From contig OZ024741.1 in assembly GCA_964016885.1 (NCBI GenBank), positions 103,478,001 through 103,542,000 of the forward strand: a DNA stretch of 64,000 nt. The letters run 5' to 3'. A model generated the notes under the pieces. It did no database searches, was not told the DNA's origin, and saw nothing but the letters and a program-made list of their open reading frames with translations. Positions 10,180-58,382 of this stretch are shown one piece after another. The position numbers and the translations under genes were made by a program. Within the stretch, counting starts at the first letter, position 1, and every line of letters starts with the position of its first letter. Origin of the DNA: Eledone cirrhosa (Eukaryota).

Positions 10180-11330
10180 GCAAAAGGTATACTCAAAAGG
10201 TTTTGAGATTTTGCTACCCATCATACAAGTCTTGTCCCAATGCAGTCGAGACGTGAAGACAATTTGGAGGCTCGATATGCAAAAAAGGTCTGTGTCAAGC
10301 TCGGCAAAAACGCTACAGAAACCAATGAAATGATCAAAACTGCTTACGGACTTACTTTCATGTGCCGGGTGACTGTTTTCCTCTGGTACAAGAGGATCCA
10401 GGGGGACAGGGAACAGGTGAGAGACGATGAGAGATGTGACAGGGAGAGGAATATCAGGAAACCAAGTTGGTCAACAAAATTCGCAAATTTCTGGACGAGC
10501 ACGCTAATGCAACTCTTTTGACAATTGCTAAACAATTTGTAGTGGCTGAGATCACTGTGCACAGAGTCATTCATGACACTCTGAACATGCGCAAAGTTTG
10601 TTTCCAATGTGCTCAATGAAGACCAAAGACAGAAGCACATTGATGACAGCAGGAAGGTGGTCAAGTGGATCGCTTCGAATCTAAGTGTCCTTATGTCTCT
10701 GGTAACCTGTAACAAGAGCTGGGTCTACTGTTATGATCCAGAGACCAAGAGACAGAGTGCCCAGTGGAAACATTCTGACTCCCCAAGACCCAAGAAAGCC
10801 AGGTCCACTGGGAAGCTCATGATGATCCCATTCCTCGACAGTAAGGGCATCAAATATATTTATTGGGTCCCCCACGGTCAAACAGTCAGCAAAGAGTACT
10901 ATGTAGAGGTTTTGAGGCAGTTCAGAAAGGGATGTCGTCGCGTGAGACCAGAGCTTTCAAGTCTGGTCAGTGGCAGCTGCACCAGGACAATGCCCCCTAC
11001 CATAAATCCACTTTGGTGACCAACTACTTGGCCGATATGTGGATCAAGACTGTTCCTCATCCCCACTACAGTTCAGACTTAGCCCCCTGCGACTTCTCCA
11101 AAGCTGAAGGAGAAGCTCAGGGCTAACCGTTTTGAGGATGTGGAGGAGATGAAGGAGGCTGTGACAAGTGCCCGGATACGTTCACTTTGGAGGACTACAT
11201 GTGGGCCTTCCAGAAGTGGCTGGAGCTCTACAACAAGTGCATTGAAGTTAGAGGGTCCTACTTTAAAGGATATTAGAGATTTGTGTTGAGCTGAGTTAAA
11301 TAAATGTCTGTGGAGCTTGTGAAAAGACAA
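10178..11330 (+). pseudogene. Decayed mariner (DD34D-type) transposon
   Basis: Frameshifted fragments: CVKLGKNATET (HTH), WVYCYDPETKRQSAQWK, LHQDNAPYH, PHPHYSSDLAPCDF (YSPDLAP motif). Confidence 0.93.
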
Positions 11331-16034: not shown

Positions 16035-16380
16035 CGATTAACCCACTCGATATGCAAATTGGGCTACTAAACCGTTAATATGCATATGGAAAGTATATAC
16101 TTTCGGACGTTCAACTATCTGGCAGAAGGTATACGTTGCTGACGATAGCTAACAAGCTTGAAACTAGTACAGCGTTCCTTTGTCAGTGTTGAACAAACGA
16201 GCAACGGTGGTTGCTAGACACTACGGCTTAATACGGGATGTTTGTTTACAAACACACCGAGCATTATAATAAATGTTTGGTGAATCCATACGTACATATA
16301 TATGTGTGCATGTATGTATATATATATATACATACTACTGTACGTCTGTATACATATATGTATGTACGTATACATACTTA
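16035..16380 (+). mobile_element. Non-coding hammerhead-bearing repeat (pLTR/retrozyme-like), copy 1
   Basis: About 340 nt homologous in inverted orientation to 18895-19215. Carries the 16133 hammerhead and ends in TA-rich microsatellite. Confidence 0.7.
16133..16175 (+). ncRNA. Minimal type I hammerhead motif with palindromic stem III
   Basis: ACGUUG-CUGACGA-UAGCU(AACA)AGCUU-GAAA-CUAG-UA-CAGCGU. Contains the ACUAGU palindrome. Confidence 0.78.
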
Positions 16381-18894: not shown

Positions 18895-19215
18895 ATGTAT
18901 GTATGTATACGTACATACATATATGTATACAGACGTACAGTAGTATGTATATATATACATACATGCACACATATATATATCCACGTATCGGTTTACCGAA
19001 CATTTATTATAATGCTCGGTACGCCGTACAGTGTTTAGGCAACCACGTCACCTTTTTGTTCAACACTGACACATGAACGATGTACTAGTTTCAAGCTTAT
19101 TAGCTATCGTCAGCATCGTATACCTTCCTGCCAGATGGTTGAACGTCTGAAAATATATACTTTCCTTATGCATATTAACGGCTGAGAAGCCTAATTTGCA
19201 TATCGAGTGAGTTCA
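18895..19215 (-). mobile_element. Non-coding hammerhead-bearing repeat, copy 2
   Basis: Reverse-complement homology to 16035-16380 (e.g. actcgatatgcaaatt, ccgttaatatgcat, gtcagtgttgaacaaa, ccgagcattataataaatgtt). Confidence 0.7.
19077..19119 (-). ncRNA. Second copy of the ACUAGU hammerhead motif
   Basis: ACGAUG-CUGACGA-UAGCU(AAUA)AGCUU-GAAA-CUAG-UA-CAUCGU, with a perfect 6-bp stem I. Confidence 0.8.
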
Positions 19216-30867: not shown

Positions 30868-30970
30868 CTCCAGAAGGGAAAGATAAACATGCTATCAGTG
30901 AAGGGCAACGATATGAGGGGAAATGTTAAGCTAACATCTTAGTACCTTACATAGTATAAACATACATGTG

Positions 30971-31050
<80 letters not shown>

Positions 31051-31065
31051 TATATATATATATCA

Positions 31066-31153
<88 letters not shown>

Positions 31154-31534
31154 AGGATAACAAGGTATCGTTATAGGTAATCCAATGAGAGGTTGTGAAT
31201 ACTTCTTATTATGGATAGTTTTAGCGAAAGGCGTTGTTTGACTCAACAAGAGGTTTACGTAGATGACGCTATGTAAGTTAAACTTAGAGTAGTAAAATTG
31301 AAAAAGTGGAGAATAACATGGTCAACAGTACAAAAAAGGGAATTTATTTATAGTCTAACAATTGTTTCACTGATAGAGTTGTCTAAAAATTACTAAACAC
31401 TCTATCAGTGAAACAATTGTTAGACTATAAATAAATTCCCTTTTTTGTACTGTTGACCATGTTATTCTTCACTTTTTCAATTATATATACCACTTGTAGA
31501 GACCTATAAATACCATATTTATTTTTTGATACCC

Positions 31535-31585
31535 AGATTCCTGATGATTTCTAAAGAATGAAACAGTTCTAGTCCTGTAGAATCT
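31535..31585 (+). ncRNA. Complete type I hammerhead ribozyme motif
   Basis: AGAUUC-CUGAUGA-UUUCUAAAGAAU-GAAA-CAG(UUCUAGUC)CUG-UA-GAAUCU. Perfect 6-bp stem I, short stem II, 4-bp stem III, GUA cleavage triplet (cut after 31579). Confidence 0.82.
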
Positions 31586-31667
31586 CATCTATATTAAAAC
31601 TTTTATACTCTGCAATGTATTGAGTACCTTACTTACTGTGGTTACCTCCATTTCAACCCGGAATAAC

Positions 31668-31712
<45 letters not shown>

Positions 31713-32064
31713 AAAAAGAAATTGAAAGTGCAACTAGAGTCTTTTAAGAATATTCATTTATTTACTTTACTGGTTTCACAGTTCTTATGATTTTCAAATG
31801 TAAAATTGAGATGGAGGGTTTGTGTTTCTGTTGTGATTTGTCTCCCATCAACTTCTTTTCCTTATACTTACACCCATCTGAGACATCTTTTTTTTAAAAC
31901 TCATTTTCTTATATTCATATATATATATACAGAATTAGCCGTCGAAACGGCTTGAGCTCAGCTGTCGGGGTCTTACTCGTTCCTATTACCCACTCTACTA
32001 CCTCAAGTATTGAGTACTTTGGTGCGTTATGGTCCACCTGGTTCCTTACCACATTTCCTTCGTT

Positions 32065-32113
<49 letters not shown>

Positions 32114-32118
<5 letters not shown>

Positions 32119-33480
32119 TCTGAATTTGTTTAGCAAGATTCTTTATCTGAAAACGTGTGTTGAAACCGATATTGTTATACTTTGGGAGGGTCATGTTGCC
32201 AATAAGAAACACACGCACCAGTTCCTTTCACTTCAATTTATTATAATAAATTTATAAATTTAGGAATTTATAAATTTCCGGTTGGTTGGTTGGTTCCACA
32301 ACCAGATGGTTGTTTATATATTGTCAAAGTTCTTTCGTCACACATTCTGTGACCTCTTCAGTGACTGGGATTATTTTCTTTGTTTTTGTGCCACTCCTTT
32401 GTTCTGTCCTACGCCATCTTGTTTCTGTGTGTGTGTTGTGTGCTCAGTCTGCGCATGCGCCACATCCGGGTGTCTGTGTGTGTTTATATTCGTTTATTTA
32501 TTTGTTTATTTACATGTTACTGGTTGGTTGTTTGTTCTATGTGCGTGTGTGTTTTCATTTTGTCCTTAATTGTAAGTTGTGATGCTGCTGTTCCACTCAT
32601 GTTTTCTATTTAATTTTGGTTGTAATTCATTTATGTTTATTGCCTCTGTGATTTGTCTAAACATTGCGTCTTTTCTGTGTGTAGATTCTATTTTTATTTC
32701 TATGTTCTCTAATTTACCCTTATGTTCTATTTTAGCATGTTGGTAGAGTACAGATGATTCTTTACTATATTGAAGGTCTCGCCAGTGTTCATTTATCCGT
32801 TCCCCTATACTACGAGCTGTCTCACCTATGTACACTATATTTTTATCTCTACATTGTTCTTCAGTACATCTTATGCTATATACTACATTTCTAGTTTTAC
32901 AGTTAATATGGGGGCTTAATTTACAGATTATACATTTCTTATCTATACAGGGAGGTCTTTGAAAAGGGTATGTATTGCTAATAAGTGTTTTTATGGAGGT
33001 ACCTGGTCTTTCTACTATCTTAATATTGAGTTTATGTTTATCTAGGGCCCTTCGAAATTTGTAAGCTAATTCACCTCTAGGGGTTGTATCGATGAACATT
33101 ACACTCTCGTATTTATTGCTATCATACCATGAGTTTATTCTATTAGCCTTATTCCTAGTTCTTTCTATTCTATTCCAAAATTTGCTCCTATACAAGGGGC
33201 AGGTCCCATTTGTGTCATTATTTACCATTTTTTCCCATTTGGTTCTGGCTCCTCTATACACTCTGATTTTATCTCTCTCATTGTAACCAGAGAACGCATA
33301 CGGTGGATGAAGTGTTGTATGTGTCTCTCTAGTTCTTCGGGGTTGCACATGCGGGACACGTTTCTCATCACCCGTACCAAATCCGCAATCAGTATGTTGA
33401 TTTTGGTATGGTCCGAAACAGCTGAGTTTCGGTGGATCAGATATTTGGAAGTCATGGGTTTGGCATAATGGGAATGGAAG
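32114..33480 (-). mobile_element. Inverted copy of the same Penelope-like 3' segment (frameshifted)
   Basis: Reverse complement of 33518-34803 with only about a dozen differences by eye. A 1-nt deletion splits the ORF into 33222-33455 and 32566-33348. It is about 27 nt longer at the 5' end and abuts (TA)n at 32114. Confidence 0.92.
32323..32365 (-). ncRNA. Hammerhead motif in the inverted pLTR (sense to Wnt pre-mRNA)
   Basis: Exact reverse complement of 34610-34652. Confidence 0.75.
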
Positions 33481-33517
33481 ATTTGTTTTTTTGTTTTTTG
33501 TTTTTTGTTATTAATAT

Positions 33518-34803
33518 ATGACTTCCAAATATCTGATCCACCGAAACTCAGCTGTTTCGGACCATACCAAAATCAACATACTGATTGCGGATTTGGTACG
33601 GGTGATGAGAAACGTGTCCCGCATGTGCAACCCCGAAGAACTAGAGAGACACATACAACACTTCATCCACCGTATGCAGTTCTCTGGTTACAATCAGAGA
33701 GATAAAATCAGAGTGTATAGAGGAGCCAGAACCAAATGGGAAGCAATGGTAAATAATGACACAAATGGGACCTGCCCCTTGTATAGGAGCAACTTTTGGA
33801 ATAGAATAGAAAGAACTAGGAATAAGGCTAATAGAATAAACTCATGGTATGATAGCAATAAATGCCAGAGTGTAATGTTCATCGATACAACCCCTAGAGG
33901 TGAATTAGCTTACAAATTTCGAAGGGCCCTAGATAAACATAAACTCAATATTAAGATAGTAGAAAGACCAGGTACCTCCATAAAAACACTTATTAGCAAC
34001 ACATACCCTTTTCAAAGACCTCCCTGTATAGATAAGAAATGTATAATCTGTAAATTAAGCCCCCATATTAACTGTAAAACTAGAAATGTAGTATATAGCA
34101 TAAGATGTACTGAAGAACAATGTAGAGATAAAAATATAGTGTACATAGGTGAGACAGCTCGTAGTATAGGGGAACGGATAAATGAACACTGGCGAGACCT
34201 TCAAGATAGTAAAGAATCATCTGTACTCTACCAACATGCTAAAATAGAACATAAGGGTAAATTAGAGAACATAGAAATAAAAATAGAATCTACACACAGA
34301 AAAGACGCAATGTTTAGACAAATCACAGAGGCAATAAACATAAATGAATTACAACCAAAATTAAATAGAAAACATGAGTGGAACAGCAACATCACAACTT
34401 ACAATTAAGGACAAAATGAAAACACACACGCACATAGAACAAACAACCAACCAGTAACATGTAAATAAACAAATAAATAAACGAATATAAACACACACAG
34501 ACACCCGGATGTGGCGCATGCGCAGACTGAGCACACAACACACACACAGAAACAAGATGGCGTAGGACAGAACAAAGGAGAGGCACAAAAACAAAGAAAA
34601 TAATCCCCAGTCACTGAAGAGGTCACAGAATGTGTGACGAAAGAACTTTGACAATATATAAACAACCATCTGGTTGTGGAACCAACAAACCAACCGGAAA
34701 TTTATAAATTCCTAAATTTATAAATTTATTATAATAAATTGAAGTGAAAGGAACTGGTGCGTGTGTTTCTTATTGGCAACATGACCCTCCCAAAGTATAA
34801 CAA
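33518..34803 (+). mobile_element. 5'-truncated Penelope-like retroelement: RT thumb, C-terminal GIY-YIG endonuclease and pLTR
   Basis: ORF 33518-34408 has a Cys-rich linker (RPPCIDKKCIICK...INCKTRNVVYSIRC) and GIY-YIG motifs (VVY...YIGETARSIGERINEH...EAININELQPKLNR). It is followed by ~400 nt of non-coding pLTR ending in (TA)n. Confidence 0.92.
34610..34652 (+). ncRNA. Minimal type I hammerhead ribozyme motif in PLE pLTR
   Basis: GUCA-CUGAAGA-G-GUCAC(AGAAUGU)GUGAC-GAAA-GAAC-UU-UGAC. Stem I GUCA/UGAC, 5-bp stem II, very short stem III. Confidence 0.75.
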
Positions 34804-35089
34804 TATATATATATATATATATATATGCCATTGCCGGTGGCAACTCCTAGCAAAAAGAGCAACGTGAAATCAAGTATTTTTCTCAAGAACATGAAGCCAC
34901 ACTTAGTACGTGAATCGAATCTACAACCTTATTATCGTGACACCAACATCAGAACCATTAAGCCACGTGCCTTGGCACAAATAGTGTGCATTGATACAGA
35001 TAATACTGGAATAAAATCTATCCTACGTTCTAAGGATTGCCAATTCGCCGCCATATAGTTAAATATATAATTAAATATTTAGTTAAGTA

Positions 35090-35482
35090 TTTGTTTTGCA
35101 AGATTCTTGGTGTGAAATCGTGTGTTGAAACAGACATTGTTATATTGGGGGGGGGGTCATGTTGCCAATTTTGCCAATAAAAACACATGCACTATTTGAC
35201 TTTCACTTCAGCTTTAATATTATTAATTATTGGTTATTTTGTTAAAGCTCTTTCGTCACATATTCTGTGATCTCAATAACTATTTGTTCTTCTTCTCCCT
35301 GTCTCCGCTTCTTTCTGATCTTATTCTGTTTACTCCGTCTTGTCTTTCGTGGAAAACATACCACAGAAAGACATGATGAAAGAACCAACAACCAATGATT
35401 AATAATAATAAGCTGAAGTGAAAGTTAAATAGTACGTGTGTCTTTATTGGGAAAATTGGCAGCATAACCAAATATAACAATA
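35090..35482. mobile_element. Diverged pLTR relative with inverted partial copy
   Basis: gcaagattctt...gtgtgttgaaac...ttgttata...gggtcatgttgccaa resembles the pLTR. 35385-35482 is the reverse complement of about 35137-35238. Confidence 0.7.
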
Positions 35483-35621
35483 AGTATATCGTTAAATATA
35501 TTGTTAAATATATAGTTAAGTATACAGTTCCATATATGTAGTTAAATGTATAGTTAAGTGTTCAGTAACATATATATAGTTAAAAAGAAGAAAATCAATG
35601 TAGAAAGAGGTCATATCTTAC

Positions 35622-48174: not shown

Positions 48175-48934
48175 GAGAGAAATAGCGAGAGAGTGGGGGA
48201 GTAAGTAATGTTAAAGGGTGCTTGGATTAAGCTTGTCGGAAGTTGGGGGGGGGGGGGGGTAGAGAGAGAGAATTGGACAGAGAAAGAGGGAAAAAGAGGG
48301 AGAGAGAGAAGGAGACAAAGAGAGAGAGAGAGAGAGAGAGAGAGATGGGGGGAGGAGACAGAGAGAAAAAGAGAGAGAGAAAAAGAGAGCGAGAGAAAGA
48401 GTGAGAGAGAGAGAGAGAAGGAGACAAAGAGAGAGAAACAGAGAGAGAGAGGAAGAGAGAAAAAGAGTTGGTGGGTAAATCTGGGGTGTGGGTTGAAACA
48501 AGGGAGGACAGTGGAGGGCAGATGGGGAAGGCAGAGGGTGCTGGAGAGGGTGGCGAGAAACTATTAGTGAGGTAAGGAACTATCAAAACATTGGTGAACA
48601 TGTCACATTGTAACTATAGATCTGGGGTGGTGTGGGTAGAATAGAGGTGAGGATAGAAGGGAGTGGTGGGGTAGTGGAGTCGTGGAGTGGGGCTGGAAGA
48701 GTAAGTAAGGTTTAGAGGGAGGGAGAGAGGTAGTAAAGTAGTGGAGTAAAGGGGGTATTGAGTTGGAGGGTGGTAGCAGTGGTGGTAGTGATGGTGGCGG
48801 TGGCAATGGTGGTGGTGGTAGTGGCAGTAGTGATGGTGGAGGGGAGGGGGGGGGGGGGTAATTGTGGTGGGTGGGGGTACGACGAGAAGGGTGAAAGTTG
48901 TGAATGAGGTGAAGGAGGAAAGAGGTGGGGTCGA

Positions 48935-51900
48935 GGTGGTTGCGGTGGTGGCGTCGTTGAGTAAGGTGGTAGCGGTGGTGTCGTTGAGTAAGGTGGGTAG
49001 CGGTGGTGGTGTCGTTGAGTAAGGTGGGTAGCGGTGGTGGTGTCATTGAGTAAGGTGGTAGCGGTGGTGGTGTCGTTGAGTAAGGTGGGTAGCGGTGGTG
49101 GTGTCATTGAGTAAGGTGGTAGCGGTGGTGGTGTCGTTGAGTAAGGTGGTAGCGGTGGTGGTGTCGTTGAGCGAGGTGGGTAGCGGTGGTGGTGTCGTTG
49201 AGTAAGGTGGGTAGCGGTGGTGGTGTCATTGAGTAAGGTGGTAGCGGTGGTGGTGTGGTTCAGTAAGGTGGGTAGCGGTGGTGGTGTCGTTGAGTAAGGT
49301 GGGTAGCGGTGGTGGTGTCGTTGAGTAAGGTGGGTAGCGGTGGTGGTGTCATTGAGTAAGGTGGTAGCGGTGGTGGTGTCATTGAGTAAGGTGGTAGCGG
49401 TGGTGGTGTTGTTGAGTGAGGTGGGTAGCGGTGGTGGTGTCGTTGAGTAAGGTGGGTAGCGGTGGTGGTGTCGTTGAGTAAGGTGGGTAGCGGTGGTGGT
49501 GTCATTGAGTAAGGTGGTAGCGGGTGGTGGTGTCGTTGAGTAAGGTGGTAGCGGTGGTGGTGTCGTTGAGTAAGGTGGGTAGCGGTGGTGGTGTCGTTGA
49601 GTAAGGTGGGTAGCGGTGGTGGTGTCATTGAGTAAGGTGGTAGCGGTGGTGGTGTCGTTGAGTAAGGTGGTAGCGGTGGTGGTGTCGTTGAGTAAGGTGG
49701 GTAGCGGTGGTGGTGTCATTGAGTAAGGTGGTAGCGGTGGTGGTGTCATTGAGTAAGGTGGTAGCGGTGGTGGTGTTGTTGAGTGAGGTGGGTAGCGGTG
49801 GTGGTGTCGTTGAGTAAGGTGGGTAGCGGTGGTGGTGTCATTGAGTAAGGTGGGTAGCGGCGGTGGTGTCATTGAGTAAGGTGGTAGCGGGTGGTGGTGT
49901 GGTTCAGTAAGGTGGGTAGCGGTGGTGTCGTTGAGTAAGGTGGGTAGCGGTGGTGGTGTCGTTGAGTAAGGGTGGGTAGCGGTGGTGGTGTCGTTTGAGT
50001 AAGGTGGGTACCGTGGTGGTGTCATTGAGTAAGGTGGGTAGCGGTGGTGGTGTCATTGAGTAAGGTGGGTAGCGGTGGTGGTGTCATTGAGTAAGGTGGT
50101 AGCGGTGGTGGTGTCGTTGAGTAAGGTGGTTGCGGTGGTGGTGTCGTTGAGTAAGGTGGTAGCGGTGGTGGTGTTGTTGAGTGAGGTGGGTAGCGGTGGT
50201 GGTGTCGTTGAGTAAGGTGGTAGCGGTGGTGGTGTCGTTGAGTAAGGTGGGTAGCGGTGGTGGTGTCGTTGAGTAAGGTGGGTAGCGGTGGTGGTGTCAT
50301 TGAGTAAGGTGGGTAGCGGTGGTGGTGTCGTTGAGTAAGGTGGTAGCGGTTGGTGGTGTCGTTGAGTAAGGTGGTAGCGGTGGTGGTGTCATTGAGTAAG
50401 GTGGTAGCGGTGGTGGTGTCGTGAGTGAGGTGGGTAGCGGCGGTGGTGTCATTGAGTAAGGTGGTAGCGGTGGTGGTGTCGTTGAGTGAGGTGGGTAGCG
50501 GCGGTGGTGTCATTGAGTAAGTGGTAGCGGTGGTGGTGTCATTGAGTAAGGTGGTAGCGGTGGTGGTGTGGTTCAGTAAGGTGGGTAGCGGTGGTGTCGT
50601 TGAGTAAGGTGGGTAGCGGTGGTGGTGTCGTTGAGTAAGGTGGTAGAGGTGGTGGTGTCGTTGAGTGAGGTGGGTAGCGGCGGTGGTGTCATTGAGTAAG
50701 GTGGTAGCGGTGGTGGTGTCGTTGAGTGAGGTGGGTAGCGGTGGTGGTGTCGTTGAGTAAGGTGGTAGCGGTGGTGGTGTCGTTGAGTAAGGTGGGTAGC
50801 GGTGGTGGTGTCATTGAGTAAGGTGGTAGCGGTGGTGGTGTCATTGAGTAAGGTGGTAGCGGTGGTGGTGTGGTTCAGTAAGGTGGGTAGCGGTGGTGTC
50901 GTTGAGTAAGGTGGGTAGCGGTGGTGGTGTCGTTGAGTAAGGTGGGTAGCGGTGGTGGTGTCGTTGAGTAAGGTGGGTACCGTGGTGGTGTCATTGAGTA
51001 AGGTGGGTAGCGGTGGTGGTGTCATTGAGTAAGGTGGTAGCGGTGGTGGTGTCGTTGAGTAAGGTGGGTAGCGGTGGTGGTGTCATTGAGTAAGGTGGGT
51101 AGCGGTGGTGGTGTCATTGAGTAAGGTGGTAGCGGTGGTGGTGTCGTTGAGTAAGGTGGTAGCGGTGGTGTCGTTGAGTGAGGTGGGTAGCGGTGGTGGT
51201 GTCGTTGAGTAAGGTGGGTAGCGGTGGTGGTGTCGTTGAGCGAGGTGGGTAGCGGTGGTGGTGTCGTTGAGTAAGGTGGGTAGCGGTGGTGGTGTCATTG
51301 AGTAAGGTGGGTACCGTGGTGGTGTCATTGAGTAAGGTGGTAGCGGTGGTGGTGTCGTTGAGTAAGGTGGTAGCGGTGGTGGTGTCATTGAGTAAGGTGG
51401 TAGCGGTGGTGGTGTCGTTGAGTAAGGTGGTAGCGGTGGTGGTGTCATTGAGTAAGGTGGTAGCGGTGGTGGTGTCATTGAGTAAGGTGGTAGCGGTGGT
51501 GGTGTGGTTCAGTAAGGTGGGTAGCGGTGGTGTCGTTGAGTAAGGTGGGTAGCGGTGGTGGTGTCGTTGAGTAAGGTGGGTAGCGGTGGTGGTGTCGTTG
51601 AGCGAGGTGGGTAGCGGTGGTGGTGTCGTTGAGTAAGGTGGTAGCGGTGGTGGTGTCATTGAGTAAGGTGGTAGCGGTGGTGGTGTGGTTCAGTAAGGTG
51701 GGTAGCGGTGGTGTCGTTGAGTAAGGTGGGTAGCGGTGGTGGTGTCGTTGAGTAAGGTGGGTAGCGGTGGTGGTGTCGTTGAGCGAGGTGGGTAGCGGTG
51801 GTGGTGTCGTTGAGTAAGGTGGGTAGCGGTGGTGGTGTCATTGAGTAAGGCGGTAGCGGTAGTGGTGTCATTGAGTAAGGTGGTAGCGGTGGTGGTGTCG

Positions 51901-54900
51901 TTGAGTGAGGTGGGTAGCGGTGGTGGTGTCGTTGAGTAAGGTGGGTAGCGGTGGTGGTGTCATTGAGTAAGGTGGTAGCGGTGGTGGTGTCATTGAGTAA
52001 GGTGGTAGCGGTGGTGGTGTGGTTCAGTAAGGTGGGTAGCGGTGGTGTCGTTGAGTAAGGTGGGTAGCGGTGGTGGTGTCGTTGAGTAAGGTGGGTAGCG
52101 GTGGTGGTGTCGTTGAGTAAGGTGGTAGCGGTGGTGGTGTCATTGAGTAAGGTGGGTAGCGGTGGTGGTGTTGTTGAGTAAGGTGGTAGCGGTGGTGGTG
52201 TCGTTGAGTAAGGTGGGTAGCGGTGGTGGTGTCATTGAGTAAGGTGGTAGCGATGGTGGTGTCGTTGAGTAAGGTGGGTAGCGGTGGTGGTGTCATTGAG
52301 TAAGGTGGTAGCGGTGGTAGTGTTGTTGAGTAAGGTGGTAGCGGTGGTGGTGTCGTTGAGTAAGGCGGTAGCGGTGGTGGTGTCATTGAGTAAGGTGGTA
52401 GCGATGGTGGTGTCGTTGAGTAAGGTGGGTAGCGGTGGTGGTGTCATTGAGTAAGGTGGTAGCGGTGGTAGTGTTGTTGAGTAAGGTGGTAGCGGTGGTG
52501 GTGTCGTTGAGTAAGGCGGTAGCGGTGGTGGTGTCATTGAGTAAGGTGGTAGCGGTGGTGGTGTCATTGAGTAAGGCGGTAGCGGTGGTGGTGTCATTGA
52601 GTAAGGTGGTAGCGGTGGTGGTGTCATTGAGTAAGGCGGTAGCGGTGGTGGTGTCATTGAGTAAGGTGGTAGCGGTGGTGGTGTCATTGAGTAAGGTGGT
52701 AGCGGTGGTGGTGTCGTTGAGTAAGGTGGGTAGCGGTGGTGGTGTCGTTGAGTAAGGTGGGTAGCGGTGGTGGTGTCATTGAGTAAGGTGGTAGCGGTGG
52801 TGGTGTCGTTGAGTAAGGTGGTTGCGGTGGTGGTGTCGTTGAGTAAGGTGGTAGCGGTGGTGGTGTCATTGAGTAAGGTGGTAGCGGTGGTGGTGTCATT
52901 GAGTAAGGTGGTAGCGGTGGTGGTGTCGTTGAGTAAGGTGGTAGCGGTGGTGGTGTCGTTGAGTAAGGTGGTTGCGGTGGTGGTGTCGTTGAGTAAGGTG
53001 GTAGCGGTGGTGGTGTCATTGAGTAAGGTGGTAGCGGTGGTGGTGTCATTGAGTAAGGTGGTAGCGGTGGTGGTGTCGTTGAGTAAGGTGGTAGCGGTGG
53101 TGGTGTCGTTGAGTAAGGTGGGTAGCGGTGGTGGTGTCATTGAGTAAGGTGGTAGCGGTGGTGGTGTCGTTGAGTAAGGTGGTAGCGGTGGTGGTGTCAT
53201 TGAGTAAGGCGGTAGCGGTGGTGGTGTCATTGAGTAAGGTGGGTAGCGGTGGTGGTGTCATTGAGTAAGGTGGTAGCGGTGGTGGTGTCGTTGAGTAAGG
53301 TGGTAGCGGTGGTGGTGTCATTGAGTAAGGCGGTAGCGGTGGTGGTGTCATTGAGTAAGGTGGTAGCGGTGGTGGTGTCGTTGAGTAAGGTGGTAGCGGT
53401 GGTGGTGTCATTGAGTAAGGCGGTAGCGGTGGTGGTGTCATTGAGTAAGGTGGTAGCGGTGGTGGTGTCGTTGAGTAAGGTGGTAGCGGCGGTGGTGTCG
53501 TTGAGTAAGGTGGTAGCGGTGGTGGTGTCATTGTGTAAGGTGGTAGCGGTGGTGGTGTCATTGAGTGAGGTGGGTAGCGGTGGTGGTGTCGTTGAGTAAG
53601 GTGGTAGCGGTGGTGTCGTTGAGTAAGGTGGGTAGCGGTGGTGGTGTCATTGAGTAAGGTGGTAGCGGTGGTGGTGTCATTGAGTAAGGCGGTAGCGGTG
53701 GTGGTGTCATTGAGTAAGGTGGTAGCGGTGGTGGTGTCGTTGAGTAAGGTGGTAGCGGCGGTGGTGTCGTTGAGTAAGGTGGTAGCGGTGGTGGTGTCGT
53801 TGAGTAAGGTGGTAGCGGCGGTGGTGTCGTTGAGTAAGGTGGTAGCGGTGGTGGTGTCATTGTGTAAGGTGGTAGCGGTGGTGGTGTCATTGAGTGAGGT
53901 GGGTAGCGGTGGTGGTGTCGTTGAGTAAGGTGGTAGCGGTGGTGTCGTTGAGTAAGGTGGGTAGCGGTGGTGGTGTCATTGAGTAAGGTGGTAGCGGTGG
54001 TGGTGTCATTGAGTAAGGCGGTAGCGGTGGTGGTGTCATTGAGTAAGGCGGTAGCGGTGGTGGTGTCATTGAGTAAGGTGGTAGCGGTGGTGGTGTCGTT
54101 GAGTAAGGTGGGTAGCGGTGGTGGTGTCATTGAGTAAGGTGGTAGCGGTGGTGGTGTCATTGAGTAAGGCGGTAGCGGTGGTGGTGTCGTTGAGTAAGGT
54201 GGGTAGCGGTGGTGGTGTCGTTGAGTAAGGTGGTAGCGGTGGTGGTGTCGTTGAGTAAGGTGGTAGCGGTGGTGGTGTCGTTGAGTAAGGTGGTAGCGGT
54301 GGTGGTGTCGTTGAGTAAGGTGGGTAGCGGTGGTGGTGTCGTTGAGTAAGGTGGGTAGCGGTGGTGGTTGTCGTTGAGTAAGGTGGTAGCGGTGGTGGTG
54401 TCGTTGAGTAAGGTGGGTAGCGGTGGTGGTGTCGTTGAGTAAGGTGGTAGCGGTGGTGTCGTTGAGTAAGGTGGGTAGCGGTGGTGGTGTCGTTGAGTAA
54501 GGTGGTAGCGGTGGTGGTGTCATTGAGTAAGGTGGTAGCGGTGGTGGTGTCGTTGAGTAAGGTGGGTAGCGGTGGTGGTGTCGTTGAGTAAGGTGGTAGC
54601 GGTGGTGGTGTCGTTGAGTAAGGTGGTAGCGGTGGTGGTGTCGTTGAGTAAGGTGGTAGCGGTGGTGGTGTCGTTGAGTAAGGTGGTAGCGGTGGTGGTG
54701 TCATTGAGTAAGGTGGTAGCGGTGGTGGTGTCGTTGAGTAAGGTGGGTAGCGGTGGTGGTGTCGTTGAGTAAGGTGGTAGCGGTGGTGTCGTTGAGTAAG
54801 GTGGGTAGCGGTGGTGGCAGTGTTGAGTAAGGTGGGTAGCGGTGGTGGTGTCATTGAGTAAGGTGGTAGCGGTGGTGGCAGTGTTGAGTAAGGTGGGTAG

Positions 54901-57882
54901 CGGTGGTGGTGTCATTGAGTAAGGTGGTAGCGGTGGTGGTGTCGTTGAATAAGGTGGTTGCGGTGGTGGTGTCGTTGAGTAAGGTGGTAGCGGTGGTGGT
55001 GTCGTTGAGTAAGGTGGTAGCGGTGGTGGTGTCGTTGAGTAAGGTGGTAGCGGTGGTGGTGTCATTGAGTAAGGTGGTAGCGGTGGTGGTGTCGTTGAGT
55101 AAGGTGGTAGCGGTGGTGGTGTCGTTGAGTAAGGTGGGTAGAGGTGGTGGTGTCGTTGAGTGAGGTGGGTAGCGGTGGTGGTGTTGTTGAGTAAGGTGTA
55201 GCGGTGGTGGTGTCGTTGAGTGAGGTGGGTAGCGGTGGTGGTGTTGTTGAGTGAGGTGGTAGCGGTGGTGGTGTCGTTGAGTGAGGTGGGTAGCGGTGGT
55301 GGTGTTGTTGAGTGAGGTGGGTAGCGGTGGTGGTGTTGTTGAGTAAGGTGGGTAGCGCTGGTGGTGTCGTTGAATAAGGTGGTTGCGGTGGTGGTGTCGT
55401 TGAGTAAGGTGGTAGCGGTGGTGGTGTCGTTGAGTGAGGTGGGTAGCGGTGGTGGTGTCGTTGAATAAGGTGGTTGCGGTGGTGGTGTCGTTGAGTAAGG
55501 TGGTAGCGGTGGTGGTGTCATTGAGTAAGGTGGTAGCGGTGGTGGTGTCGTTGAGTGAGGTGGGTAGCGGTGGTGGTGTCGTTGAATAAGGTGGTTGCGG
55601 TGGTGGTGTCGTTGAGTAAGGTGGTAGCGGTGGTGGTGTCGTTGAGTAAGGTGGTAGCGGTGGTGGTGTCATTGAGTAAGGTGGTAGCGGTGGTGGTGTC
55701 GTTGAGTAAGGTGGTTGCGGTGGTGGTGTCGTTGAGTAAGGTGGGTAGCGGTGGTGGTGTCGTTGAGTAAGGTGGGTAGCGGTGGTGGTGTCATTGAGTA
55801 AGGTGGTAGCGGTGGTGGTGTCATTGAGTAAGGTGGGTAGCGGTGGTGGTGTCGTTGAGTAAGGTGGGTAGCGGTGGTGGTGTCATTGAGTAAGGTGGTA
55901 GCGGTGGTGGTGTCATTGAGTAAGGTGGGTAGCGGTGGTGGTGTCATTGAGTAAGGTGGTAGCGGTGGTGGTGTCATTGAGTAAGGCGGTAGCGGTGGTG
56001 GTGTCATTGAGTAAGGTGGTAGCGGTGGTGGTGTCATTGAGTAAGGTGGTAGCGGTAGTGGTGTCGTTGAGTAAGGCGGTAGCGGTGGTGGTGTCATTGA
56101 GTAAGGCGGTAGCGGTGGTGGTGTCATTGAGTAAGGTGGTAGCGGTGGTGGTGTCGTTGAGTAAGGTGGTAGCGGTGGTGGTGTCGTTGAGTAAGGTGGT
56201 AGCGGTGGTGGTGTCGTTGAGTAAGGTGGTAGCGGTGGTGGTGTCGTTGAGTAAGGCGGTAGCGGTGGTGGTGTCATTGAGTAAGGCGGTAGCGGTGGTG
56301 GTGTCGTTGAGTAAGGTGGTAGCGGTGGTGGTGTCGTTGAGTAAGGTGGTAGCGGTGGTGGGTGTCGTTGAGTAAGGTGGTAGCGGTGGTGGTGTCGTTG
56401 AGTAAGGCGGTAGCGGTGGTGGTGTCATTGAGTAAGGCGGTAGCGGTGGTGGTGTCATTGAGTAAGGTGGTAGCGGTGGTGGTGTCATTGAGTAAGGTGG
56501 TAGCGGTGGTGGTGTCGTTGAGTAAGGTGGTAGCGGTGGTGGTGTCATTGAGTAAGGTGGTAGCGGTGGTGGTGTCATTGAGTAAGGTGGTAGCGGTGGT
56601 GGTGTCATTGAGTAAGGTGGTAGCGGTGGTGGTGTCATTGAGTAAGGTGGTAGCGGTGGTGGTGTCGTTGAGTAAGGCGGTAGCGGTGGTGGTGTCATTG
56701 AGTAAGGTGGTAGCGGTGGTGGTGTCGTTGAGTAAGGTGGTAGCGGTGGTGGTGTCGTTGAGTGAGGTGGGTAGCGGCGGTGGTGTCGTTGAGTAAGGTG
56801 GTAGCGGTGGTGGTGTCGTTGAGTAAGGTGGTAGCGGTGGTGGTGTCGTTGAGTAAGGTGGTAGCGGTGGTGGTGTCGTTGAGTGAGGTGGGTAGCGGCG
56901 GTGGTGTCGTTGAGTAAGGTGGTAGCGGTGGTGGTGTCGTTGAGTAAGGTGGGTAGCGGTGGTGGTGTCGTTGAGTAAGGTGGTAGCGGTGGTGGCAGTG
57001 TTGAGTAAGGTGGGTAGCGGTGGTGGTGTCGTTGAGTAAGGTGGTAGCGGTGGTGGCAGTGTTGAGTAAGGTGGGTAAGGGGGGTGGTGTCGTTGAGTAA
57101 GGTGGTAGTGGTGGTGGCAGTGTTGAGTAAGGTGGTAGCGGTGGTGGCAGTGTTGAGTAAGGTGGGTAAGGGGGGTGGTGTCGTTGAGTAAGGTGGTAGT
57201 GGTGGTGGCAGTGTTGAGTAAGGTGGTAGCGGTGGTGGCAGTGTTGAGTAAGGTGGTAGCGGTGGTGGCAGTGTTGAGTAAGGCGGTAGCGGTGGTGGCA
57301 GTGTTGAGTAAGGTGGGTAGCGGTGGTGGCAGTGTTGAGTAAGGCTGGTAGCGGTGGTGGCAGTGTTGAGTAAGGTGGGTAGCGGTGGTGGCAGTGTTGA
57401 GTAAGGTGGGTAGCGGTGGTGGCAGTGTTGAGTAAGGCGGTAGCGGTGGTGGCAGTGTTGAGTAAGGTGGGTAGCGGTGGTGGCAGTGTTGAGTAAGGCG
57501 GTAGCGGTTGGTGGCAGTGTTGAGTAAGGTGGGTAGCGGTGGTGGCAGTGTTGAGTAAGGCGGTAGCGGTGGTGGCAGTGTTGAGTAAGGTGGGTAGCGG
57601 TGGTGGCAGTGTTGAGTAAGGCGGTAGCGGTGGTGGCAGTGTTGAGTAAGGTGGGTAGCGGTGGTGGCAGTGTTGAGTAAGGTGGGTAGCGGTGGTGGCA
57701 GTGTTGAGTAAGGCGGTAGCGGTGGTGGCAGTGTTGAGTAAGGTGGGTAGCGGTGGTGGCAGTGTTGAGTAAGGCGGTAGCGGTGGTGGCAGTGTTGAGT
57801 AAGGTGGGTAGCGGTGGTGGCAGTGTTGAGTAAGGTGGGTAGCGGTGGTGGCAGTGTTGAGTAAGGCGGTAGCGGTGGTGGT
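48935..57882. repeat. ~9-kb satellite, 30/31-bp unit GTG(G)GTAGCGGTGGTGGTGTC(G/A)TTGAGTAAG
   Basis: Directly visible array of roughly 295 units. The variant ...GGTGGCAGTGTTGAGTAAG dominates after about 57000. Confidence 0.98.
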
Positions 57883-58382
57883 GGATTGACTGTTATCAAT
57901 GTTTAATAACTCAACCTACCTGTGTGTGACAGACATAGTCTGGGAAATGTGAGGAGGTGAAGGGGGGGGGGGGAATTCGGAGTAGTGGTAGTAGTAGTGA
58001 GGAGTAGAACAGGAGAAGAGATGGGAAAATGGAGAAATATGAACGACAATGGTAAAGGGTAGTGAGACAGAAGGAGATAGTGAGGAAGAGAGAAAGGGAG
58101 AGAGAGGAGATGAGGAGAACGTGAGGAAGTTAAGAGAGAGAGGGAGAGAGACAGATAGAAATGGGTAAAGATTTATAGTTAGAAAAAGAAAGAGAGCTAA
58201 ATCAATTATGAAAGGGGCTTCAACATGCTGCCCTTTCCTGTACATCTATGGCTACATTGTGCAATGTTACGTGTCTTCTTCAAGAGGTCATTCTTGAAGG
58301 AGATTTTTTGACTGCTACATCTAGCGAACCGGGTGGACACCGTAAAATAATTTGTGACAGACAGGGCAGATGACAGAGAGGT

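What the first reader, a model, noticed from the sequence alone, without database searches (positions are those of the whole stretch)
31535..31585. Complete hammerhead in a Wnt intron (antisense), with no coding element attached
Seen: perfect 6-bp stem I (AGAUUC/GAAUCU), intact CUGAUGA and GAAA, a true stem III (ACAG/CUGU, 8-nt loop) and a GUA site. Unlike the minimal motifs it could fold as a monomer. It sits in a ~190-nt module ending in (TA)n at about 31670. Inference: a retrozyme-like or solo pLTR element, and the best candidate here for an active ribozyme.
Basis: partly seen in the sequence, partly recalled or inferred. Interest (0 to 1): 0.75.

Follow-up and report, generated by a model that had tools for sequence, protein, structure and literature searches.

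The report
Hammerhead end of a Penelope retrotransposon
This hammerhead motif is the clipped-off end of a very common jumping gene, one of more than 26,000 such motifs in the genome; it likely cuts itself only weakly and in pairs, and it likely sits at the very start of that jumping gene's RNA.

Summary
The motif is real, but it is neither an orphan nor a retrozyme. Window 31488-31669 is the 5'-truncated end (pLTR plus tail) of a Hydra-clade Penelope-like retrotransposon, inserted into (TA)n inside a Wnt intron, antisense. The same 182 nt flank a 713-aa RT + GIY-YIG ORF elsewhere at 96-99% identity; the predicted fold matches telomerase RT best. The core pattern occurs 26,444 times. Helix I covaries between subfamilies. 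'Monomer' is doubtful: helix III is an interrupted palindrome (CUAG kept in 23,994 of 26,444) and folds far better as a dimer. None of 100 copies starts at the cleavage site; 42 start near the first base of helix I, 30 nt behind a conserved TATA box, so transcription likely starts at the ribozyme and uncut RNA is what gets copied. The scan noted this start-site reading before on other DNA of this genome (e1-10349368). Cleavage is untested. Known kind of element; interest 0.3.

The parts
31488..31669 (+). 5'-truncated terminal fragment (pLTR end plus tail) of a Hydra-clade Penelope-like retrotransposon
   Evidence: 52 matches at 90-100% identity; 21 of the other 29 loci continue 5' of 31488 with shared sequence; matches both ends of full-length elements at 96-99%
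31505..31512 (+). TATA box (TATAAATA), predicted core promoter, 30 nt before helix I
   Evidence: Sequence; at -29 to -33 in divergent subfamilies whose spacer differs; 4,766 copies keep TATA plus ribozyme start. Function inferred
31533..31539 (+). Initiator-like CCAGATT; predicted RNA start at 31535-31536, the first base of helix I
   Evidence: 25 of 100 copies begin 43-46 nt upstream of the cleavage site. Initiator consensus recalled, not from a call; inferred
31535..31585 (+). Type I hammerhead motif
   Evidence: the window's 51-mer is the commonest variant, 34 of 197 contexts in loci that were partly chosen by likeness to it
31548..31559 (+). Helix II: U·U at 10.1/11.1, three pairs, variable tetraloop
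   Evidence: U at 10.1 in 26,444 matches against 551 non-U matches to a related pattern; majority base at loop positions only 42-80% of 197 contexts
31563..31578 (+). Helix III with 8-nt loop: interrupted palindrome ACAG-nn-CUAG-nn-CUGU, predicted dimer interface
   Evidence: CUAG kept in 23,994 of 26,444; self-duplex -12.8 against hairpin -1.4 kcal/mol
31602..31669 (+). 68-nt tail between the family's two preferred 3' ends (31601 and 31669); in full elements it is 5' UTR
31670..31710 (.). (TA)n target microsatellite
   Evidence: same 3' flank in most copies
30868..35621 (-). Host Wnt intron (4,754 nt) that holds the insertion, antisense
   Evidence: Pfam wnt hits for flanking exons; GT and AG placed to keep the frame

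Best explanation
Window 31488-31669 is the clipped end of a Hydra-clade Penelope-like retrotransposon whose terminal repeat carries a type I hammerhead motif that likely starts at the first base of the element's RNA and likely cuts only weakly, as a dimer. Shown: the same 182 nt sit before and after an intact RT + GIY-YIG ORF elsewhere in the genome; copies end at two fixed 3' sites and sit in (TA)n. Inferred: RNA polymerase II starts about 30 nt behind the TATA box, at 31535-31536; the element's protein nicks (TA)n DNA and starts reverse transcription inside the RNA at 31601 or 31669. Starting in the 5' repeat, it runs off the RNA's first base and leaves the many short and head-to-head copies. 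Starting in the 3' repeat, it can run past the TATA box; it stopped after 182 nt here, which made this copy. The template is uncut RNA. The ribozyme likely works at another step, with the 5' and 3' copies of one transcript (or two transcripts) pairing through the palindromic helix III, perhaps helped by the element's protein. This intronic copy is most likely a neutral passenger; it keeps a predicted promoter but lacks a nearby partner.
For: Parent element: the EN-side protein of L038 has 130 scored matches at 94-100% identity; the module is found in 15 of 16 regions fetched around them (picked for long ORFs), on both sides of a 758-759-codon frame in L064 and L071-L075. Protein: model pLDDT 93, best six Foldseek hits are telomerase RTs; YRDD invariant in 117 of 117 aligned sequences and GIY-YIG residues Y, G, R, H, E, N in 116 of 117; Hydra signatures RW[KR] 110, DKT 107, CxCx5C 111 of 117, C-terminal CxxC and CxH as defined in PMC8557442 section 11. 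Ribozyme under selection: helix I has 2 of 6 pairs with two-sided changes, 12 cells, 0 of 500 shuffles as high (18 hand-picked sequences); loop II varies, loop III does not. U·U stands in 14 of 26 Hydra rows of File S2 of PMC8557442 (counted by eye) and in axolotl HHR_Amex2, which cleaves 22% in 1 h alone and far better as a dimer (PMC7229834 section 15). Dimer: hammerhead dimer -18.4 against -8.4 kcal/mol for two monomers; the cofold minimum has the dimer's helices I and III. RNA start: 42 of 100 copies begin 37-48 nt upstream of the cut, 0 at it; 5,498 head-to-head junctions lie within 20 nt of the core. Two internal RT starts, uncut template and protein-assisted cleavage were shown for a Poseidon element (PMC11167929).
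Against: No cleavage or RNA data. ViennaRNA does not model the core's non-canonical pairs, so low monomer probabilities may understate folding, and even the cofold minimum lacks helix II. The palindrome's self-duplex is not extreme among loop permutations (12.5% of 840 are as good). Helices II and III show no two-sided change, and loop III conservation is partly shared descent of young copies. The 100 copies are the first on one contig, of one subfamily, and both arms of inverted pairs are counted. D. virilis Penelope has a TATA-less internal promoter (PMC2377424, passages), so the TATA reading has no direct precedent that I saw. Pfam and PDB sequence searches do not recognise the ORF. Clade placement rests on motifs, not on a tree.
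Confidence: 0.8

Rival explanations
1. The element is as described, but the hammerhead folds and cleaves efficiently as a monomer.
For: Helix III has 4 pairs and an 8-nt loop, against 1-3 nt loops in all 26 Hydra rows of File S2, so a hairpin is sterically possible. Fungal and protist PLE hammerheads with large helix III cleave as monomers (PMC4209133 part 2). U·U is tolerated in HHR_Amex2.
Against: Hairpin only -1.4 kcal/mol, pair probabilities 0.01-0.05 for helices II and III; hypervariable loop II argues against a stabilising tertiary contact; the loop keeps a palindrome; no copy of 100 begins at the cut.
Confidence: 0.2
2. The breakpoint cluster at helix I is not an RNA start. It marks a splice acceptor (CAG at 31534-31536 after a pyrimidine run) or a place where the RT stalls and switches template.
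For: The D. virilis Penelope intron ends at the 5' end of helix I (PMC4209133 part 2). The window shows a U-rich run before CCCAG. Short self-complementary stretches surround the junctions.
Against: Letters between the two arms differ from copy to copy, with no shared upstream exon. Some subfamilies have GG instead of AG there yet keep the TATA box at -30 (L129, L136; rows).
Confidence: 0.25
3. It is a monomer of a non-autonomous non-LTR retrozyme that spreads through small circular RNAs.
For: Retrozymes derive from PLE pLTRs (bioRxiv 10.64898/2026.07.22.740005, abstract and Results part 1). One 250-nt head-to-tail derivative of this family exists (L024).
Against: This copy is collinear with the autonomous element's 3' end and has no tandem partner; tandems are rare in unselected loci (1 of 30 and 1 of 30); an intact ORF family exists.
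Confidence: 0.05
4. The motif is no longer catalytic; it is kept as a protein-binding or RT-priming structure of the element.
For: Cleavage was not needed for insertion in vitro for PAc; no copy of 100 starts at the cut; G10.1-C11.1 is absent.
Against: All core nucleotides are held across subfamilies while position 7, loop II and helix I pairs vary, the pattern expected of a catalytic core.
Confidence: 0.15

Closest known systems
Hydra clade of C-terminal EN+ Penelope-like elements (Craig et al. 2021, PMC8557442; passages, section 11, supplement parts 2-3 and found places read)
   Same: RWK-type, DKT, CxCx5C, CxxC and CxH motifs, no conserved CCHH; (TA)n target; hammerhead with U·U at the base of helix II (14 of 26 rows) and ACAG/CUGU helix III (4 rows exactly); by eye the ORF follows the printed Hydra alignment.
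   Different: A different family from Hydra-1_Obim, whose hammerhead differs. Unit 4.5-5.5 kb with a long microsatellite-rich 3' UTR against 'generally <3 kb'; loop III of 8 nt against 1-3; more than 26,000 motifs.
Metazoan PLE minimal hammerheads (Cervera and de la Pena 2014, PMC4209133; parts 1-2 of 4 read)
   Same: Type I motif in both pLTRs, most copies solitary or in close inverted pairs, palindromic helix III, predicted dimer, low activity.
   Different: Full 4-bp helix III with a long loop; short helix II; no extra base between 9 and 10.1; no G10.1-C11.1.
PAc Poseidon element of Anolis (Frangieh et al. 2024, PMC11167929; passages and section 3 part 2 read; author name recalled)
   Same: Two internal RT start sites defining a tail, AT-rich target, uncut RNA as template, no RNA ends at the cut.
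   Different: Other clade; here both starts lie in the 5' UTR, 68 nt apart, and the ribozyme lies wholly before the ATG.
Axolotl HHR_Amex2 retrozyme (Cervera and de la Pena 2020, PMC7229834; passages and section 15 read)
   Same: U·U at the base of helix II; better as a dimer.
   Different: Amex2 sits in 350-bp non-coding tandem repeats that give circular RNA; this copy is a solitary end of a coding element.

Membership tests
Type I hammerhead ribozyme | Core CUGANGA, GAAA, UH | tested here: met
   95-100% majority at core positions except position 7 (89%) in 197 contexts (the regex favoured conserved cores)
Type I hammerhead ribozyme | Three helices, helix I open | tested here: met
   96.6% of 234 cells paired; two-sided changes in helix I only
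Type I hammerhead ribozyme (canonical form) | G10.1-C11.1 pair | tested here: not met
   U·U in this copy and the family; a known tolerated variant
Type I hammerhead ribozyme (canonical form) | Conserved loop I - loop II tertiary contact | tested here: inconclusive
   Loop II is hypervariable; the helix I extension seen in one fold is not kept in other subfamilies
Type I hammerhead ribozyme | Mg2+-dependent self-cleavage after H17 | not testable with these tools
   Needs in vitro assay
Penelope-like element, EN+ | Single ORF with telomerase-like RT | tested here: met
   (in other copies; absent from this truncated copy)
Penelope-like element, EN+ | C-terminal GIY-YIG endonuclease | tested here: met
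   Y587, Y602, G604, R613, H617, E672, N685 conserved in 116 of 117 (residue roles recalled); one of 120 listed homologues carries PF01541; Pfam did not hit the ORF itself
Penelope-like element, EN+ | pLTRs with hammerhead, tail at one end, inverted 5' copies | tested here: met
Hydra clade | RWK, DKT, CxCx5C, CxxC/CxH present; CCHH absent | tested here: met
   against the definition; this family reads RWR, as do 30 of 117
Hydra clade | Insertion into (TA)n | tested here: met
Hydra clade | Groups with Hydra references in an RT tree | not tested
   Reference proteins were seen only as cut text in a supplement
Non-LTR retrozyme | Short head-to-tail tandem repeats | tested here: not met
   Single copy in the window; 1 of 30 and 1 of 30 loci with a neighbour within 1.2 kb
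Non-LTR retrozyme | Non-coding, non-autonomous family | tested here: not met
Non-LTR retrozyme | Small circular RNA | not testable with these tools
   No RNA holder listed

The most novel reading that the evidence does not exclude
In this family the hammerhead is a cap-removing switch: a TATA promoter places it at bases 1-51 of the mRNA, and when the 5' and 3' copies pair through the long palindromic helix III they cut off the cap and the tail, which decides whether the RNA is translated, circularised or destroyed, while only uncut RNA is reverse transcribed. That would give the long-open question of what Penelope hammerheads do a concrete, testable answer, and 4,766 promoter-bearing fragments like this one could seed short antisense RNAs inside host genes.
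Probability: 0.25. Interest if true: 0.6.

Novelty: new member of a known kind. Interest (0 to 1): 0.3.

Why it matters
As a locus it is ordinary: one of tens of thousands of Penelope fragments. The family is useful. The role of Penelope hammerheads is stated to be unclear (PMC8557442), and here a young family with intact ORFs and more than 26,000 motifs leaves a genomic footprint of its RNA: a fixed 5' end at the ribozyme's first base, two fixed 3' starts, and no ends at the cut. That extends the in vitro result for one Poseidon element to a Hydra element in vivo, and the 8-nt palindromic loop gives a clean monomer-versus-dimer test. My searches turned up no paper on this family or on a TATA start at helix I; Lunse et al. 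on PLE hammerhead dimers could not be read, and Repbase/Dfam were not searched.

Tried and rejected
Rfam: no hammerhead hit; its miRNA hits come from the neighbouring hairpin repeat and (TA)n. Pfam, PDB sequence and PDB profile searches did not recognise the ORF. ESM Atlas was unavailable; a Pfam scan of the 117-sequence alignment was over the size limit and not repeated. RNA evidence: no RNA holder listed; three runs of unknown kind, contigs only, were laid; they hold the module and the same upstream continuation, and cannot show expression, strand or ends. One search used a wrong ambiguity letter, so its total (13,627 of 13,833) only bounds copies with A five bases before the cut; one search replaced it. 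Idea that U·U is decay of this copy: rejected. Idea that the 87-nt-arm hairpin at 31293-31485 is this element's inverted 5' copy: rejected, it is a separate repeat. Idea that the GIY-YIG ORF at 33515-34408 is the parent: rejected (E 0.05 at best). First guess of Neptune clade (note): replaced by Hydra. Search of earlier findings by sequence gave nothing. Lunse et al. not held. bioRxiv supplements are closed; those of the 2026 retrozyme preprint could bear on the retrozyme comparison. Supplements of PMC4209133, PMC7229834 and PMC11167929 were not opened.

Full report
Observation. The motif is at the stated place on the + strand: helix I 31535-31540/31580-31585, CUGAUGA 31541-31547, GAAA 31560-31563, helix III 31563-31566/31575-31578 with an 8-nt loop, GUA 31577-31579. 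A descriptor for this fold gives 1 hit in the window and 0 in 300 shuffles. Rfam does not report it. Wnt exons lie on the minus strand, and the motif is in the 4,754-nt intron 35621-30868, antisense. The Wnt subtype and the host species were not tested; earlier scan notes call the genome octopus-type.

What it belongs to. The 181-nt query gave 52 matches at 90-100% identity from 40 of 389 candidates scored. Of the other 29 loci fetched, 21 share sequence 5' of 31488, so this copy is cut short at its 5' end. Of 12 longer stretches, 4 showed a same-strand endonuclease-side frame upstream. A search with that frame scored 130 matches at 94-100% identity. In 16 regions picked for long frames, the module was present in 15, and in L064 and L071-L075 it lies both directly before a 758-759-codon frame and 2.2-3.2 kb after it, at 96-99% identity. 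The first ATG is 181 nt after the start of helix I in 6 of 6 full frames and opens a 713-714-aa protein. Pfam and PDB sequence searches miss it. It has 1,407 homologues among 7,993 candidates scored. Its model (pLDDT 93) matches telomerase RTs in the top six ranks. Across 117 aligned sequences YRDD is invariant, the GIY-YIG residues are kept in 116, RW[KR], DKT and CxCx5C occur in 110, 107 and 111, and the CCHH cysteines are not conserved. These are the marks of the Hydra clade in Craig et al. 2021. No tree was built. The core pattern occurs 26,444 times in the genome, control 0.

Is the ribozyme fold under selection? In 18 sequences that I picked for diversity, 96.6% of 234 cells pair; two helix I pairs change on both sides (12 cells, 0 of 500 shuffles as high; counted as pairs, 356 of 500 shuffles reach it), and helices II and III show no two-sided change. 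In 197 contexts loop II varies freely while loop III is nearly fixed (the regex left loop II free and penalised loop III, but the genome pattern left both free and 23,994 of 26,444 keep CUAG at the centre of an 8-nt loop). U at 10.1 is the family state: a related pattern finds only 551 non-U cases. U·U is also written in 14 of 26 Hydra rows of File S2 of Craig et al., and 4 rows have the same ACAG/CUGU helix III, with loops of 1-3 nt in all rows (counted by eye). An axolotl hammerhead with U·U cleaves 22% in an hour alone and much better as a dimer.

Monomer or dimer. The helix III hairpin is -1.4 kcal/mol; its self-duplex is -12.8. In the monomer ensemble helices II and III have probabilities of 0.01-0.05, and helix I falls to 0.06 or less once the RNA extends to 31601 or 31669 from 31535. 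The dimeric hammerhead scores -18.4 against -8.4 for two monomeric ones, and the cofold minimum (-21.2) has the dimer's helices I and III but not helix II. Against this: 12.5% of 840 loop permutations pair as well, and the model ignores the core's non-canonical pairs. The dimer is the better-supported reading, not a shown one.

Footprint of the RNA. I took the first 100 of 13,833 copies chosen only by the 21 nt 3' of the cut. None begins at the cut; 2 begin 2 nt before it, 5 at 3-19 nt, 10 at 20-36, 42 at 37-48 (25 at 43-46, the first bases of helix I), 5 at 49-99, 14 at 100-299 and 22 reach 300 or more. Both arms of inverted pairs are counted, and all come from one contig and one subfamily. 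Genome-wide, 5,498 head-to-head junctions lie within 20 nt of the core. TATAAATA lies at 31505-31512, 30 nt before helix I, and at -29 to -33 in subfamilies with different spacers; 4,766 copies keep it. The simplest reading is a TATA promoter in the pLTR with the RNA starting at helix I, and an RT that starts internally at two sites and copies uncut RNA, as shown in vitro for the Anolis PAc element. A splice acceptor or an RT stall at the same place remains possible; D. virilis Penelope has its intron end there and a TATA-less promoter. I wrote this reading down; an earlier scan note reached the same one for the fold-back copies of what appears to be this family (e1-10349368). That is an AI note and adds no independent support.

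This copy. It runs 47 nt 5' of the predicted start, so it came from the 3' repeat of a longer template. It landed between a separate hairpin repeat ending at 31487 and a (TA)n run. It has no partner in the window. Being antisense, it cannot cut the Wnt pre-mRNA in cis. Whether its promoter fires is unknown; no RNA holder was listed.

Verdict. Observation confirmed; interpretation partly supported. It is a new family of a known kind: a Hydra-clade Penelope pLTR hammerhead. Not a retrozyme, and probably not a good monomer. Interest 0.3; the cap-removing-switch reading has probability 0.25 and would merit 0.6.

Noticed in passing
window 31270-31487: Separate MITE-like repeat with 87-nt inverted arms (31293-31379 / 31399-31485); 92 matches from 40 of 1,903 candidates scored. 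It causes weak Rfam miRNA hits.
   Followed up: partly
window 32169-34806: A different Penelope-like element: GIY-YIG frame 33515-34408 (+), inverted copy 32566-33507 (-), 929-nt arms at 99%, and a minimal hammerhead-like core at 34614. Not alignable to the Hydra ORF.
   Followed up: partly
window 16133-16176 (+) and 19076-19119 (-): Minimal hammerheads of another family, also with U·U at the base of helix II and an ACUAGU palindrome in place of helix III; the same motif occurs twice 421 nt apart in L073 at 8117 and 8538.
   Followed up: no
L024:1501-1844: 250-nt head-to-tail unit made of TATA box, hammerhead, 5' UTR and the first codons of the ORF: a retrozyme-like deletion derivative of this family.
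   Followed up: no
L031-L042, L063-L078: The element's 2.2-3.2 kb 3' UTR is largely (TA)n/(TG)n microsatellite shared between copies, so the family may spread microsatellites that are also its own target.
   Followed up: no
L160/L161, L176/L177, L178/L179: In these inverted pairs one arm ends at 31601 and the other at 31669, as expected if two separately primed cDNAs were joined.
   Followed up: partly
window 10585-11019: Frame that looks by eye like a mariner-type transposase fragment (label recalled, not tested).
   Followed up: no
window 48600-57900: About 9 kb of G-rich tandem repeat with strong GC skew.
   Followed up: no
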